Below, piece by piece: positions 53,829 through 64,000 of a stretch of DNA of 64,000 nucleotides; the first letter of the stretch is position 1; each line of letters opens with the position of its first letter. Source of the stretch: an uncultured delta proteobacterium (GTDB lineage: Bacteria > Desulfobacterota > Syntrophorhabdia > Syntrophorhabdales > WCHB1-27); assembly GCA_963810935.1 (NCBI GenBank), contig CAWEPK010000010.1:32001-96000 (forward strand), given 5' to 3'. The position numbers and the translations under genes are program-made. The notes under the pieces are model-generated. The model searched no databases. It was not told the DNA's origin and saw only the letters and a program-made list of their open reading frames with translations.

Positions 53829-54713
53829 ATGAGGATAGGCTGCTTTACTCTGAACGATCCCGTACCGGAGCTTAACGAGCCCTACGTAATGGCGTGCCTC
53901 CGTCCATGGATAGACGTCAACAGCGTAGGGAGCCTCGTGATAGGCGAGTTGGAGACACGGCTGGGCGCCACGGAGATGGGGGCACTGACCAGGCCCGGCC
54001 GGTTCTATGATTTCACGCGGTACCGCCCGATCATCCACCTCGAGGACGGCATCCGCGATTTCTCCATCCCCAACACACCGGTCCACTACGCAAAAAGAGA
54101 GGGGCTCAACGATGTCGTCCTGCTTCGACTCCTTGAGCCGCATGCCGAGTCAGAGCTATACATTGAGTCCATCCTGAAGCTCTTCAAAGCCATAGGGGCA
54201 AAGAAATACATACTTCTGGGAAGCATGCACGACATGGTGCCGCACACGAGGCCCCTGCTGGTCAGCGGGTACGGCATGGGGAAGGACGCGCGCAAGGACG
54301 TGAAAAAAGCGGGCGCCCTGCCGGTCATCCATCACGGCCCGTCGACCATCGTCAACCTCGTGACGCAAAAGGCAGCGCAGGTAGGCATAGAGACGGTTTC
54401 GTTCATCGTCTCCCTGCCCCAGTATGTCGCGCTTGAAGAAGACTACGTGGGAAAAGTAAGACTCATGGAAGTGCTCAATTTTCTATATGATATTCCCGTC
54501 GACAGGGAGGACTTCGAAAAAGCACTTGAGCAGCGAAGGCTCGTCAGTCAAAGGGTCGATGACACCCCGGCGGTAAAGGCCCTCCTGCCCGAGCTGGAAA
54601 AAGCCTACGACCTGCGCGTCAAAACAGCCGGTACGGCCGGGACCTCCCAGATGACGTCCGAAATGGAAGAAATCTTCTGGAGTATCTTGGGGAAAGACAT
54701 AGGCAAAGCATAG
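53829..54713 (+). CDS. PAC2 (proteasome assembly chaperone-like) family protein
   Basis: W.D..S.G, FYDFTRYRP, EPH, VPHTRP, PQY motifs. Confidence 0.75.
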   Translation: MRIGCFTLNDPVPELNEPYVMACLRPWIDVNSVGSLVIGELETRLGATEMGALTRPGRFYDFTRYRPIIHLEDGIRDFSIPNTPVHYAKREGLNDVVLLRLLEPHAESELYIESILKLFKAIGAKKYILLGSMHDMVPHTRPLLVSGYGMGKDARKDVKKAGALPVIHHGPSTIVNLVTQKAAQVGIETVSFIVSLPQYVALEEDYVGKVRLMEVLNFLYDIPVDREDFEKALEQRRLVSQRVDDTPAVKALLPELEKAYDLRVKTAGTAGTSQMTSEMEEIFWSILGKDIGKA

Positions 54714-54990: not shown

Positions 54991-56826
54991 ATGAAACGAA
55001 GAGCGATTTGTTTGTTTGTAAGCATAGTCATGCTCGGTTTTTTCATCGGTACCTTTCACATCCGCGCTGCACTCGCGGAAGTAACCATCGAGGTCCTCAA
55101 TCCGAGGGGCGAAGTAGATCCGGCCCCCATTATTGCCCCATCCGCCAGGGTCCCCGACCTCGTGGGAAAGAAAGTGGGCGTTTACTGGAACAACAAAGCA
55201 GGGGGAGAGCATTTCTGGGATGTAATCGAGGCAGAGCTGAAAGTTAAGATGCCGGCCTTGAAGATCGTCCGCTACAACGGCGGCTTCGAGCCAAGCGACG
55301 CGCAGATTGCAGCTATGACAAAGGAGGTGGACGCCTTTTTCTACGGCGTCGGCGATTGAGGCTCCTGCACTTGGGCCGGCGTGTCCGGATCCGTGAGGAT
55401 CGATAAAACAGGAAAACCCGTAATATACGTAGTTACCGACAATTTCATCCACGATGCCAAATCGGCCGCCGAGGATACGGGGATGCCCCGCTTGCGGATG
55501 ATCACCGTCCCGGCGGATGAATACTATAAGAGGCGTTACAGCCTGGAGGATATCAAACCGGTCGCACTGGCCGCGATTAACGGATTGATAGACGGCCTCA
55601 CGCGGCCTTTGACCGCCGAAGAGGCGAGCACGAAGCCGAAACAGGCGCAAGCTGCGGGCACGATAAAATTTACGGCCGCGACATATGCGGAAGCCCTCGA
55701 GAAATTCAACCAGGAATTCCTCGATAACCACTGGGGCAGCGGCCTTCCGCTCGTGCCTCCGACGGCCGAGCGCGTAAAATGGATGCTCGCGGGGACTACG
55801 CGCTCCCCGAACGAAGTCATCGGGACCGTCGAGCCGAAGAGAGGTAAGGCGACGATAGAGAAGATCGCGATCAATGCAGTCATGGCCGGGGCAAAACCTG
55901 AGTACCTGCCCGTGATCATCGCCGCGATGGAGGGATTGACCGACAAGAATTACGACCTGCTCCACGTCATGGCATCGACCGGCTCGTTCACGCTCCAGGT
56001 CGTCGTCGATGGGCCGATCGCGGAAGAGATAGGCATGAACTCCGGGATCGGCCTTCTCGGGTATGGCTTCCGGGCGAACAATGCGATAGGCTACGCCTTG
56101 CGGCTCTGTCTTATTAATACGGGTCTGCTTTGGCCCGCAGTGAACGACATGGCCCTCGTCGGAAGGCCTTCCTCCCATACGTTCTACGTCTTCGCGGAGA
56201 ACCAGCGGAACAATCCATGGGGGCCCTATCACGTTTCGGAAGGCTATAAAAAGGAAGAGAGCTGCGTGACCGTAATGACGGTAGGCAGCTACAGCGCCTC
56301 GTCTGCCGGGCTGGTCGCCTTCGGCGGCGGAGCGGTCTTTCCGTGGACCCCGCAGCAGCTACTCGACAACATGGTGAAAACCATTATGGTAGGGCGCAAC
56401 ATGGACACCGTCTGGAAGCTGGGCACGGCCATACCTGCCCCCCAGAAGCACTTCCTCGTGCTCCACCCCGAATTCGTCATGGAGCTTGACCGCCTCGGCT
56501 ATACACGGAAGAAGATGCAGCAATACCTTTACGGCCGGAGCCGCGTGCCTTATGAAGAGCTGAGCGCCAAGGAGGTGGCGGCCTTCAAACGCAGGCTTGC
56601 CGATAAGGAGATACCGGCCGACCGGGTGGCCGTCTTTGAGGAGTCGCTCAAGGCGGGAGGAAAAGTGCCCATGCTCCTCAGGCCGGAGGATTGCGTTATC
56701 TTCGTGGCGGGCGGCATACCGGGTTACTCCTTCGGTGATTCCTATTTCTCGATACCGCCGCACGGAACTGCCGCGTTTATGACCAGAACGATCCACGGCG
56801 CGGCCCTGACAAAGGCAGGCAAATAA
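54991..56826 (+). CDS. Putative exported selenoprotein: UGSC domain fused to a large uncharacterised domain (611 aa, Sec123)
   Basis: AGGAGG RBS + ATG 54991; in-frame TGA 55357-55359 gives GVGD-U-GSCTW and continues into ORF 55381-56826 (GLPLVPPT, ATIEKIAINAVMAG..PEYLPV); signal peptide. Confidence 0.82.
55364..55398 (+). promoter_or_regulatory. Candidate bacterial SECIS hairpin
   Basis: CCTGCAC-TT-GGG-CCGG[CGTGT]CCGG-A-TCC-GTG-AGG folds into a bulged stem; loop begins 20 nt after the TGA. Confidence 0.5.
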
Positions 56827-56837
56827 AGCACCGGAGG

Positions 56838-57323
56838 GTGATATTGGGACCCGCAGGCGGCCGCGGAAAACTTCTTTGGCCGACGGCCGCGCTTTTCCTC
56901 TTTTCCTTGCTCTTGTTGCCGGCCCTTCGCGCATCGACCGAAGGGGCGCCCGGCTACACCGGCTGGAAAAAATGTGAGGCATGCCATTCGAAAATAGCCG
57001 CGGAATGGAAAACAACGAGACATGCGGACGCATTCGAGCACCTGAAGAAAACGGGGCAGGAGGAGTTGCCGAATTGCGTCCGCTGCCACAGTACGGGATA
57101 TGACCGGGCGGGCGGTTTTATCGACGCCGAGATTACGCCGGGACTTGCAGGGGTCCAGTGCGAGGCATGCCATGGACCGGGCAGGCAGCACGCGGTTGCT
57201 CCGGCTAAAGAGAGCATCGCCGGCGCACCGGGAATAGAGACGTGCAGGCGGTGCCACACTCCGGGTCAGGACCCGGGGTTTGACTACGGGCGGAAAGTGA
57301 AGGGAGTCCATCGGGTGCGGTAG
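56838..57323 (+). CDS. Periplasmic tetraheme cytochrome c (c554-like)
   Basis: Four CxxCH motifs (CEACH, CVRCH, CEACH, CRRCH); GVQCEACHGPG; signal peptide. Confidence 0.9.
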   Translation: MILGPAGGRGKLLWPTAALFLFSLLLLPALRASTEGAPGYTGWKKCEACHSKIAAEWKTTRHADAFEHLKKTGQEELPNCVRCHSTGYDRAGGFIDAEITPGLAGVQCEACHGPGRQHAVAPAKESIAGAPGIETCRRCHTPGQDPGFDYGRKVKGVHRVR

Positions 57324-57376
57324 CGGCCCTCGGTCCAAAACCGGCTCCGAGCAATTAACAAAGGAGGACGCATCGA

Positions 57377-58132
57377 ATGATGCAGGGCAAAAAACGCATA
57401 ATGATGCTTCCGGTCGTATCGCTCCTCGCCCTCCTTGCGGCAACCGCATTTATAGCGGCGGATGCGGCAGGGGCGGCGGGCATCAGGGTCACGCCGGACC
57501 GGACCGACGCCGGCACGGTAGACGAAGGGGTAATGTTAAACACCGCCTTTACTGTCGAGAATACGGGTAATGTGCCCCTGACGATTACGAACGTTCGCAC
57601 TAACTGAGCCTGCACAACCGGTGTGCTTGGCAAGCACACGCTAAAGCCGGGAGAAAAAACCGCGCTCAAGGTCGTATTCGACACGGCGGGCAACCCCGGG
57701 CCTTTCCGCAAGACGGCGACACTCACGACGGACGTCCCCGGACAGGAGGAGGTGGAAGTCGCCGTGACCGGGATGGTCAGGGAGGCGCCGGCCGCGAAGA
57801 TACGGGTAGAGCCGCGAAGGATAAGGCCGGTCCCGGCGGGGTCTCAAGGCGGGATGAAAGGGGAATTTACAATATTCAATAATGGGAGCCTGCCCCTCGT
57901 CATAGGGCGGGTTCATTCCAAAGAAAGCGCCAGGGTCTATTTCGACAGTAAAAAGGAAGGCAGCATTGTCGTCGAGCCGGGAGGCGCGAGAAAAATAGAG
58001 ATAGTTCTGGGCGAGGACAAACAGGCGGACCGGGCCGGGCAGGAGCTTGTCGCTATCGAGTCGAACGCGAGGAACGCGCCGCAAACCGGTTATGTTATAA
58101 TTATCGAGCATGGCGATCCTTCTAAGAAATAG
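57377..58132 (+). CDS. Putative exported selenoprotein, DUF1573-like Ig-fold (251 aa, Sec77)
   Basis: AAGGAGG RBS; F.VENTGNVPLTITNVRTN-U-ACTT..LKPGE matches the DUF1573 pattern NxGxxPLxIxxVxxSCGCT..PGE; TGA 57605-57607 is in frame with ORF 57623-58132. Confidence 0.8.
57621..57639 (+). promoter_or_regulatory. Candidate bacterial SECIS hairpin
   Basis: Perfect 8-bp stem GTGTGCTT-GGC-AAGCACAC; loop begins 21 nt after the TGA. Confidence 0.55.
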
Positions 58133-58148
58133 GGCAAGGAGGAAAAAA

Positions 58149-58562
58149 ATGGTCAAGACCGCATCCCTGCTTTCCGTCATTATGGTGCTTGCGCTGCTCT
58201 ACGGTGTCACGGGCCGGGCGGCGGCCCAGGAAGAGGTCCCGCGCATCACCATCGAGGAACTGAAAGGCATAATGGACCGAAAAACGGATGTGGTGATCCT
58301 CGATACCCAGCCGAAGGCCCTCTATGACAAAGAGCATATCAAGGGGGCCATATCCTTCCCGTGGAAGCGGAAAATTGCGGCGCAGGACGTACAAAGCCTG
58401 CCCCGCGACAAGCTCATTGTCACGTATTGCGACTGCGGGCCGGGGGAATCAGACTCGGCCGGTGTCGCCTCCCAGTTGCTATCCTTCGGTTTCAGCGACG
58501 TAAAGGTGCTGAAAGACCCGTCGATACGGGGATGGAAAAAGGCCGGCTATCCTGTGGAGTAG
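58149..58562 (+). CDS. Exported rhodanese-like domain protein with a CxC active-site loop
   Basis: Signal peptide; VILDTQ, HIKGAISFP, IVTYCDCGPGE, GWKKAGYPVE; AAGGAGG RBS. Confidence 0.85.
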   Translation: MVKTASLLSVIMVLALLYGVTGRAAAQEEVPRITIEELKGIMDRKTDVVILDTQPKALYDKEHIKGAISFPWKRKIAAQDVQSLPRDKLIVTYCDCGPGESDSAGVASQLLSFGFSDVKVLKDPSIRGWKKAGYPVE

Positions 58563-63693: not shown

Positions 63694-63782
63694 GCCGAAG
63701 TGGTGGAACAGGCAGACGCGCCGGACTCAAAATCCGGTGGGGCTTACACCCCGTGCGGGTTCGATTCCCGTCTTCGGCACCA
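63694..63782 (+). tRNA. tRNA-Leu(CAA) with encoded CCA
   Basis: GCCGAAG..CCGGA-CTCAAAA-TCCGG, long variable arm, GGTTCGATTCC, CTTCGGC-A-CCA. Confidence 0.97.
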
Positions 63783-63817
63783 GTGATTTAGAGGACTTAC
63801 CGCTCATCCTTTTCTGC

Positions 63818-64000
63818 TTATCTGCGACTATTAATTGAAATTGTGCCCGGAATTGTGCCCACCTGCGCCTGTTCGGTAGTTTCTCGACTCTCTTCATGAA
63901 GAGCCGCAACTCGCTCACAGGCCCGCTTGAGGTCTTCCTCGTTGGTGATGTTGTACCTATCAAATACGGCCCGCGTCTTATGGCCGCTGATCTTCATGGC
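63818..64000 (-). mobile_element. C-terminus of a tyrosine recombinase/integrase (partial, runs off the window)
   Basis: Hand translation from 64000: [29 protein letters not shown], containing the box II GH..Y catalytic motif; converges on the tRNA-Leu 3' end. Confidence 0.85.
63839..63860. repeat. Tandem 10-bp direct repeat, candidate integrase arm-type sites
   Basis: AATTGTGCCC-GG-AATTGTGCCC about 57 nt downstream of the tRNA 3' end. Confidence 0.55.

What the first reader, a model, noticed from the sequence alone, without database searches (positions are those of the whole stretch)
54991..58562. Four-gene periplasmic redox operon with two hidden selenoproteins, a tetraheme cytochrome c and a rhodanese
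Seen in sequence: four co-oriented genes with gaps of 11, 53 and 16 nt. Each has an N-terminal signal-peptide-like segment and a redox/thiol motif: UxxC (UGSC fusion), 4x CxxCH, UxC (DUF1573-like) and CxC (rhodanese). Two of them contain an in-frame TGA exactly where homologous families carry Cys, each followed by a hairpin. Established: UGA plus a downstream SECIS encodes Sec in bacteria, rhodaneses carry S/Se, and c554-like tetrahemes shuttle electrons. Inference: a dedicated extracytoplasmic Se-dependent system for sulfur/selenium or thiol-substrate redox chemistry, coupled to electron transfer through the cytochrome. Standard gene callers would break it into six ORFs, four of them unrecognisable fragments. 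I know of no characterised system with this composition but cannot verify novelty.
Basis: partly seen in the sequence, partly recalled or inferred. Interest (0 to 1): 0.88.

Follow-up and report, generated by a model that had tools for sequence, protein, structure and literature searches.

The report
Exported selenium-haem redox gene module
Four neighbouring genes, two of them selenium proteins hidden by an internal stop codon, form a real, conserved set of exported redox proteins. Its core, a four-haem cytochrome often fused to a selenium-bearing domain, probably passes electrons between haem and sulfur or selenium groups outside the cytoplasm.

Summary
Observation confirmed. The genes encode a UGSC fusion (Sec123), a c554-like tetrahaem, a two-Ig DUF1573 protein (Sec77) and a CxC rhodanese. 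The DUF1573 site is TGA in 35 of 37 related loci and Cys in 2, with a covarying hairpin. The genome has selA, selD and tRNA-Sec; selB is frameshifted, probably an assembly error.

All four genes lie together in 20 of 37 loci, in several orders, across three phyla; 0 of 25 distant DUF1573 loci have the partners. The core is cytochrome plus DUF1573: adjacent in 29 of 37 loci, fused in 9, and also found in arylsulfotransferase operons without UGSC or rhodanese.

The cytochrome keeps seven His for four haems, so one haem site is open. This parallels the unrelated polysulfide reductase MccSep (haems plus a Sec-bearing Ig domain). The UGSC Sec site is homologous to GrdB/PrdB.

Best reading (0.5): a haem-to-Se/S relay serving the UGSC enzyme; substrate and direction untested. 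UGSC and DUF1573 are known selenoprotein families, and this scan reported UGSC fusions before on other DNA. The module and fusion were not found in my searches; two key papers were unavailable.

The parts
54991..56826 (+). UGSC-fusion selenoprotein, 611 aa: signal-like N-terminus, flavodoxin-like UGSC domain (about res. 55-212) with U123-x-x-C126, and a ~390-aa C-terminal domain without Pfam/NCBIfam match
   Evidence: orthologues at 57-87% identity with TGA kept
55357..55359 (+). in-frame TGA, Sec123 (predicted)
55373..55391 (+). SECIS-like hairpin of the UGSC gene (6 of 8 pairs here, 8 of 8 in close orthologues)
   Evidence: not significant alone
56838..57323 (+). c554-like tetrahaem cytochrome c, 161 aa: 4 CxxCH plus 3 invariant further His (H62, H118, H158), no conserved Met
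57377..58132 (+). DUF1573 (OS_HP2-like) selenoprotein, 251 aa: two ASH/PapD-like Ig domains, U77-x-C79; fused behind the cytochrome in many relatives
57605..57607 (+). in-frame TGA, Sec77 (predicted)
57621..57639 (+). SECIS-like hairpin of the DUF1573 gene, 8 bp stem with 3-nt loop
   Evidence: covariation in 29 sequences; Cys forms change the stem
58149..58562 (+). single-domain rhodanese-fold protein, 137 aa, signal-like N-terminus, C94-D-C96
58569..58592 (+). terminator-like hairpin and T-run after the last gene (weak)
   Evidence: 8 such sites found in the region against 5.2 expected from shuffles

Best explanation
An exported redox module built around a cytochrome-DUF1573 core.

Shown: the genes are linked; cytochrome and DUF1573 are often one polypeptide; the cytochrome has one more haem than it has distal His ligands; DUF1573 carries an invariant Sec/Cys-x-Cys on an Ig domain; the UGSC Sec site is homologous to the catalytic site of GrdB/PrdB.

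Inferred: the open haem (haem 2 by alignment to c554) exchanges electrons with the U-x-C of DUF1573. The small CxC rhodanese-fold protein relays the dithiol or persulfide. The large UGSC selenoenzyme is the client: its selenolate attacks a substrate outside the cytoplasm, as GrdB/PrdB do, and is regenerated through the relay, most likely in the reducing direction. In a sister clade the same core serves another client set: a small helix-hairpin-helix protein with a C-terminal CxC and a ~970-aa exported CGHC protein in arylsulfotransferase operons. The substrate is unknown; a sulfur compound is favoured. The electron source lies outside the operon.
For: Cytochrome within 4 kb of DUF1573 in 29 of 37 loci, rhodanese 26, UGSC 25, all three 20 (two pairs are near-identical). 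At least four gene orders. Complete fusion in 9 of 37 loci, and 15 database proteins that end exactly before the Sec codon (some are the same loci). 0 of 25 distant DUF1573 loci have these neighbours. Seven invariant His in 35 of 35 rows and 25 of 25. c554 match E 5e-14; haem 2 is named the active site of c554 and OcwA. UGSC vs GrdB/PrdB profile probability 91.9, E 7e-7, UxxC in register. Module UGSCs are not one clade: at least 2 label changes are forced by starred branches. The pattern small CxC protein plus large CxxC protein repeats in L166-L168. Sulfur context: YeeE next to DUF1573 in L060 and L062, ASST and YeiH in L166-L169, dsrA in this genome.
Against: No biochemical or expression data. 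Only 4 of 20 fetched UGSC-fusion loci carry the whole module, and 11 carry no partner in the stretch held, so UGSC does not need it. DUF1573 orthologues occur without the cytochrome in L060, L075 and L081 despite long flanks. The operon has no membrane electron donor. The cytochrome part of the fusion model is low-confidence (pLDDT about 47-67, pTM 0.56), so the geometry between haem and Sec is not known. The direction of electron flow is a guess. selB has three 1-nt indels in this assembly.
Confidence: 0.5

Rival explanations
1. The cytochrome-DUF1573 pair is itself the catalyst: an independently built counterpart of MccSep that reduces polysulfide, persulfide or selenite at a Cys-ligated haem with a neighbouring Sec. 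The rhodanese delivers sulfane sulfur and UGSC is an accessory or parallel enzyme.
For: MccSep has a multihaem cap plus an Ig-like domain from which Sec reaches a His/Cys haem (PMC13510729). The fusion here has the same domain logic, with one open haem and U-x-C. Sulfur-transport and dsr context. No MccSep family match in this genome (93% complete).
Against: No sequence match to NF040886; four haems, not five; MccSep's haem-ligating Cys lies far from its Sec in sequence. The distant DUF1573 proteins examined keep the same C-G-C motif without a cytochrome nearby. Reuse of the core in sulfotransferase operons fits a service role better.
Confidence: 0.25
2. A disulfide or selenylsulfide forming or repairing system for exported enzymes in anaerobes, with electrons flowing from thiols to the haems, analogous to DsbL/DsbI for arylsulfate sulfotransferase.
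For: The sister clade sits in or beside ASST operons; E. coli AST is co-encoded with DsbL/DsbI and needs its disulfide (PMC13426309 passages). Partners are exchangeable.
Against: The one ASST read in full (L169) has a single Cys after its signal peptide, so it has no disulfide to form. No thioredoxin fold in DUF1573. A Sec nucleophile usually works reduced (general knowledge).
Confidence: 0.13
3. A co-regulated neighbourhood of exported thiol/selenol proteins with no shared pathway; only cytochrome and DUF1573 are true partners.
For: UGSC and rhodanese partners come from different subfamilies; UGSC also pairs with UshA-like selenoproteins carrying a c554 tail (L046, L047).
Against: The same four families persist through several gene orders and three phyla, and flanking genes are not conserved.
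Confidence: 0.08
4. In this strain the TGAs are real stops because selB is broken, so the two selenoprotein genes are not read through.
For: selB is in pieces with three 1-nt indels against G001; seven other GTPase hits show long open frames.
Against: 12 of 80 orthologous genes tested are frameshifted in this assembly, including two selB neighbours. selB passes the cut-off in 5 of 5 module-bearing relatives, one hit covering only model positions 1-263. selA, selD and tRNA-Sec are present, and other TGA-redox genes are kept.
Confidence: 0.04

Closest known systems
UGSC family (seleno)protein (PF24696, NF041046), including the UGSC/Unknown_1 fusion noted in the GOS survey (PMC2398784)
   Same: UxxC motif, PF24696 at 90 bits, fusion to a large unassigned domain.
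   Different: Below the NF041046 cut-off (69 of 125 bits); exported; the model is flavodoxin-like, whereas that paper called the fold likely Trx-like; linked to a cytochrome module.
DUF1573 / OS_HP2 selenoprotein (PF07610, NF041425)
   Same: Ig-like domain with U-x-C; listed as a known selenoprotein family with motif UGC.
   Different: Two Ig domains, U-A-C, below the NF041425 cut-off (74 of 100), and tied or fused to a c554-like cytochrome.
MccSep / ExtKL polysulfide reductase (NF040886; PMC13510729)
   Same: Periplasmic multihaem cytochrome plus an Ig-like domain bearing Sec; one haem without a second His.
   Different: No sequence match; four haems; Sec and Cys two residues apart; often split in two genes; activity untested.
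Cytochrome c554 (PF13435; 1BVB) and the c554 tail of UshA-like selenoproteins (NF041198)
   Same: Four CxxCH; His spacing aligns over c554 residues 5-130; NF041198 positions 399-518 at 128 bits.
   Different: About 125 mature residues against 211; no sign of an ammonia-oxidiser context; no UshA domain.
GrdB/PrdB, selenoprotein B of glycine/proline reductases (PF07355)
   Same: Profile homology over 68 columns with UxxC in register.
   Different: Only the Sec-bearing region matches; no GrdE/PrdA-like partner domain; PF07355 itself does not hit this genome; exported.
Rhodanese-related (seleno)protein LYCAU (NF041203)
   Same: Exported single rhodanese domain with CxC at the position of CxU.
   Different: 73 of 115 bits; Cys only in all 21 module loci where the motif was read; longer loop C-D-C-G-P-G-E.

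Membership tests
Bacterial selenoprotein (UGA recoding) | in-frame TGA aligned to Cys in homologues | tested here: met
   DUF1573: 35 TGA and 2 TGT of 37 loci; 49 of 52 full-length database homologues have CxC, 3 have W. UGSC: C in 31 of 65 full-length rows, other residues in the rest; TGA in the loci read.
Bacterial selenoprotein (UGA recoding) | SECIS hairpin just downstream | tested here: met
   DUF1573 hairpin covaries; UGSC hairpin is weaker here, 6 of 8 pairs; neither is significant alone.
Bacterial selenoprotein (UGA recoding) | selA, selB, selC, selD in the genome | tested here: inconclusive
   selA, selD, tRNA-Sec present; selB frameshifted in an assembly with 12 of 80 genes frameshifted.
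Bacterial selenoprotein (UGA recoding) | Se incorporated in the protein | not testable with these tools
   needs 75Se labelling or MS
UGSC family (PF24696) | Pfam score over gathering cut-off and UxxC | tested here: met
   90.2 bits vs 25
UGSC equivalog NF041046 | score of 125 bits | tested here: not met
   69.3 bits
DUF1573 (PF07610) | Pfam score over cut-off; Ig-like fold | tested here: met
   89.7 vs 26.1 bits; PapD/ASH-like matches, e.g. 2e6j Z 11.9, rmsd 2.0, 103 aligned, on the fused orthologue
OS_HP2 NF041425 | score of 100 bits | tested here: not met
   73.8 bits
Cytochrome c554 domain (PF13435) | Pfam score; four CxxCH with three further His | tested here: met
   68 vs 20.8 bits
Nitrosomonas c554 equivalog NF043010 | score of 400 bits | tested here: not met
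   55.5 bits
MccSep/ExtKL (NF040886) | five haems and family match | tested here: not met
   four CxxCH; no NF040886 hit
MccSep/ExtKL (works like) | His/Cys haem next to Sec; polysulfide reduction | not testable with these tools
   the models gave no coordinates or contacts
GrdB/PrdB (PF07355) | family HMM match | tested here: not met
   no PF07355 hit in the protein or genome
GrdB/PrdB (remote homology) | UxxC region homologous | tested here: met
   hhalign probability 91.9, E 7e-7; HMM domain score 27.8 bits on L098
GrdB/PrdB systems | pyruvoyl partner subunit (GrdE/PrdA) | tested here: inconclusive
   C-domain does not match a 4-sequence GrdE profile (probability 2.7); shallow profile
Rhodanese (PF00581) | fold match and Cys at the catalytic loop | tested here: met
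   46.5 vs 22.2 bits; invariant Y-C-D-C
Rhodanese (PF00581) | sulfurtransferase activity | not testable with these tools
   needs an assay

The most novel reading that the evidence does not exclude
The c554-DUF1573 pair or fusion is a second, independently assembled class of multihaem selenoenzyme: a portable haem-to-selenol junction that anaerobes attach to different exported enzymes. Here it powers an extracytoplasmic relative of glycine/proline reductase selenoprotein B, which would give the abundant, function-unknown UGSC family its first pathway.
Probability: 0.35. Interest if true: 0.85.

Novelty: new variant of a known kind. Interest (0 to 1): 0.64.

Why it matters
[quoted passage not shown] DUF1573 has no function either. 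The module supplies candidate partners and a direct test for both: a natural single-chain cytochrome-DUF1573 fusion and all-Cys natural variants that can be expressed without Sec machinery. After MccSep, a second haem-plus-Sec-Ig design would show that this chemistry is more general. Gene callers cut the fusion at the TGA, which would explain why it is easy to miss.

Tried and rejected
Complex prediction of cytochrome plus DUF1573 (natural Cys pair from L169, four haems): no answer, score 0.08, controls not folded. It counts neither for nor against binding.

Fold searches with the 611-aa UGSC model gave only generic flavodoxin/Rossmann-like matches to residues 55-212 (best Z 10.2, rmsd 2.9, 123 aligned). 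The C-domain was not folded alone, so its fold is untested, not shown new. Sequence search of the PDB with the UGSC fusion found nothing; with the GrdB/PrdB profile only two designed proteins at weak E. The fusion model's searches were filled by Ig matches; no MccSep chain appeared among the rows shown. No atlas look-alike search exists for the UGSC fusion; the atlas returned only DUF1573 clusters for a Cys-form homologue.

GrdE/PrdA identity of the C-domain was not supported. Single-strand folding did not separate the hairpins from shuffles. Promoter and terminator scans were near chance. No RNA holder was listed among public runs.

Three homologues with W at the Sec site (P0336-P0338, all JGI) were considered as a refutation. 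They carry the downstream residues typical of TGA forms, so I infer a TGA translated as W by the pipeline; their DNA was not seen. L087 has U-A-S instead of U-A-C.

My script gene caller missed genes in distant genomes, so synteny counts rest on tblastn. That count missed a UGSC gene at the contig end of L172 and divergent UGSC paralogues in L060. One search was an uninformative 20-residue query.

Literature searches found no description of the operon or fusion. Haft & Gwadz 2023 and Haft & Tolstoy 2025 were not held. No supplements were read.
Full report
1. Observation. The four frames are present as described, with gaps of 11, 53 and 16 nt and purine-rich stretches before each start. Table 11 gives six ORFs; the database's own entry for the first gene is a 447-aa fragment. 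Both TGAs have coding-like sequence on each side. Short-read contigs cover TGA1 in 2 of 4 runs and TGA2 in 4 of 4, with no other letter listed (one study, possibly the source). All four proteins have signal-like N-termini by hydropathy only.

2. Sec recoding. The genome has selA, two selD, one with its own TGA, and three tRNA-Sec copies. selB is in pieces, with three single-base indels against the intact, 84% identical gene of G001. 12 of 80 orthologous genes tested against G001 are frameshifted in this assembly, two of them beside selB, so an assembly error is the likelier cause. Five of 5 module-bearing relatives have selB over the cut-off, one as a partial hit. The DUF1573 site is TGA in 35 of 37 loci and TGT in 2. 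Among 52 full-length database homologues of a Cys form, 49 have CxC and 3 have W; 60 further hits are fragments, nearly all starting after the motif. The hairpin 13 nt after that TGA covaries but is not significant as a single fold. For UGSC, TGA stands at the motif in the module loci read. Among 65 full-length database rows 31 have Cys there and the rest other residues, so Sec-free members exist.

3. Families. Pfam: UGSC, Cytochrome_C554, DUF1573, Rhodanese, all over cut-off. NCBIfam: best hits are four (seleno)protein models, all below cut-off. Reviews list UGSC, DUF1573, rhodanese CxU and UshA-like as known selenoprotein families and call UGSC uncharacterised (PMC13188914 passages; PMC9312934 passages; PMC1976440 passages). 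A UGSC fusion to an unknown domain was noted in 2008 (PMC2398784 passages).

4. Synteny. DUF1573 orthologues were collected from relatives, genome contigs, metagenomes and a phylum sample. Of 37 loci, the cytochrome lies within 4 kb on the same strand in 29, the rhodanese in 26, UGSC in 25 and all three in 20; of the 21 with long flanks, all three in 13. Two pairs are near-identical, and kin are not independent. Orders include UGSC-Cyt-DUF-Rhod (here), Rhod-Cyt-DUF-UGSC, UGSC-Rhod-Cyt-DUF and Cyt-DUF-Rhod-UGSC. Record titles name Syntrophorhabdaceae, Syntrophaceae, Nitrospiraceae and Acidobacteriota. The module is patchy: 5 of 22 genomes of the family and 5 of 401 in the phylum sample at E below 1e-30. 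Controls: 0 of 10 and 0 of 15 distant DUF1573 loci have these neighbours. In reverse, of 20 UGSC-fusion loci fetched, 4 have the module, 3 a rhodanese only, 2 a UshA-like selenoprotein with a c554 tail and 11 none in the stretch held. A tree of 45 UGSC C-domain rows needs at least 2 label changes on well-supported branches, 5 in the best tree, so the module pairs with more than one UGSC clade, by recruitment or loss.

5. The core. Cytochrome and DUF1573 are one open frame in 9 of 37 loci. 15 database proteins consist of the cytochrome plus the first Ig strands and stop just before the Sec codon. In four loci (L166-L169; three Sec, one Cys) the pair occurs without UGSC or rhodanese. There it follows a small helix-hairpin-helix protein ending in CxC, in or beside operons with an arylsulfotransferase (3 of 4 seen), a YeiH-type membrane protein and a ~970-aa protein with conserved CGHC (3 of 4). 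In L060 and L062 a YeeE sulfur transporter precedes DUF1573.

6. Anatomy. The cytochrome has seven invariant His and no conserved Met. It aligns to c554 with two of the distal His in register. Haem 2 is called the active site in c554 and OcwA (bioRxiv 10.1101/641308 passages); that it is five-coordinate in c554 is recalled. The assignment of the open site to haem 2 here is an inference. The fused orthologue folds as two confident PapD/ASH-like Ig domains and a poorly modelled apo-cytochrome. The UGSC fusion models at pLDDT 94.6, pTM 0.93, with a flavodoxin-like N-domain and Sec at the start of a helix. Its Sec region aligns with GrdB/PrdB-like proteins at probability 91.9. MccSep (PMC13510729; parts 1, 2 and 4 of 8 read) uses a multihaem cap and an Ig domain whose Sec reaches a His/Cys haem to reduce polysulfide. 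The pair here shares that layout but not its sequence.

7. Host context. The genome has cytochrome c assembly genes, dsrA over cut-off within a cluster that looks like dsrABC-MKJOP by my reading of the sequences (labels recalled, not HMM-tested), one UGSC gene only, and no PF07355 or MccSep match.

8. Mechanism. Shown: linkage, fusion, motif conservation, His count, GrdB/PrdB homology. Inferred: electrons pass between the open haem and U-x-C, then through the CxC rhodanese-fold protein to the UGSC selenoenzyme, most likely to re-reduce it after attack on an outside substrate (0.5). Rivals: the pair is itself a polysulfide or selenite reductase (0.25); a Dsb-like oxidase, suggested by AST-DsbL-DsbI (PMC13426309 passages) but weakened by the single mature Cys of the L169 ASST (0.13); mere co-regulation (0.08); no readthrough in this strain (0.04).

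9. Novelty. The parts are known families; the kind (periplasmic multihaem selenoenzyme) is known from MccSep. The four-gene module, the c554-DUF1573 selenoprotein fusion and the UGSC-GrdB link were not found in nine literature searches. Two Haft papers on selenoprotein families and neighbourhoods could not be read, BSepDB was seen only as a listing, and no supplements were read. Earlier scan notes cover UGSC fusions in other genomes but returned nothing for this module or for DUF1573. Verdict: new variant of a known kind, interest 0.64.

Noticed in passing
L166:1205-4120, L167:771-3674, L168:1473-4385: An exported ~970-aa protein with no Pfam hit (3 of 3; no NCBIfam hit for L166) and a conserved CGHC motif, between a helix-hairpin-helix gene and a YeiH gene, upstream of the cytochrome-DUF1573 pair; an arylsulfotransferase gene precedes it in L166 and L168.
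   Followed up: partly
L046:4400-5780, L047:5750-7125: UGSC fusion directly followed by a UshA-like selenoprotein (P-C-G-U) with a c554-like tail: a second way of pairing UGSC with the same cytochrome domain.
   Followed up: partly
L048, L064-L066, L089-L092 (next to the UGSC gene): A second exported gene holding only the C-terminal partner domain of the UGSC fusion, without the Sec domain; these rows form their own clade.
   Followed up: partly
G000 C4:30323-30418, C6:4921-5016, C11:126660-126755: Three near-identical tRNA-Sec copies with the same upstream but different downstream DNA; strain mixing or an element integrating at selC.
   Followed up: no
G000 C8:663471-664640 and C10:306073-307242: Two dsrA copies with identical scores, each match spanning one TAA; the C10 copy lies in a dsr-like cluster.
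   Followed up: no
G000 C17:146888-147298, C9:278967, C10:340194, C12:3836, C12:220923, C16:144269: Other likely selenoproteins: LYCAU-type rhodanese, thioredoxin-like, peroxiredoxin-like, two HdrA-like, OsmC-like (labels recalled from motifs).
   Followed up: no
L101-L126: Many short PrdB-like UxxC selenoproteins across the phylum that hit PF07355 only in its C-terminal part; in the loci examined no GrdE-like neighbour was seen.
   Followed up: partly
L052:2372-2938, L061:538-1068: A small exported protein with no Pfam hit (motif I-I-E-C-G) next to UGSC genes in two distant genomes.
   Followed up: no
window 63694-64000: tRNA-Leu followed by the end of an integrase-like frame on the minus strand, suggesting an integrated element beyond the window (label recalled).
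   Followed up: no
window 53829-54713: PAC2-family gene upstream of the module, not conserved beside it in relatives.
   Followed up: yes
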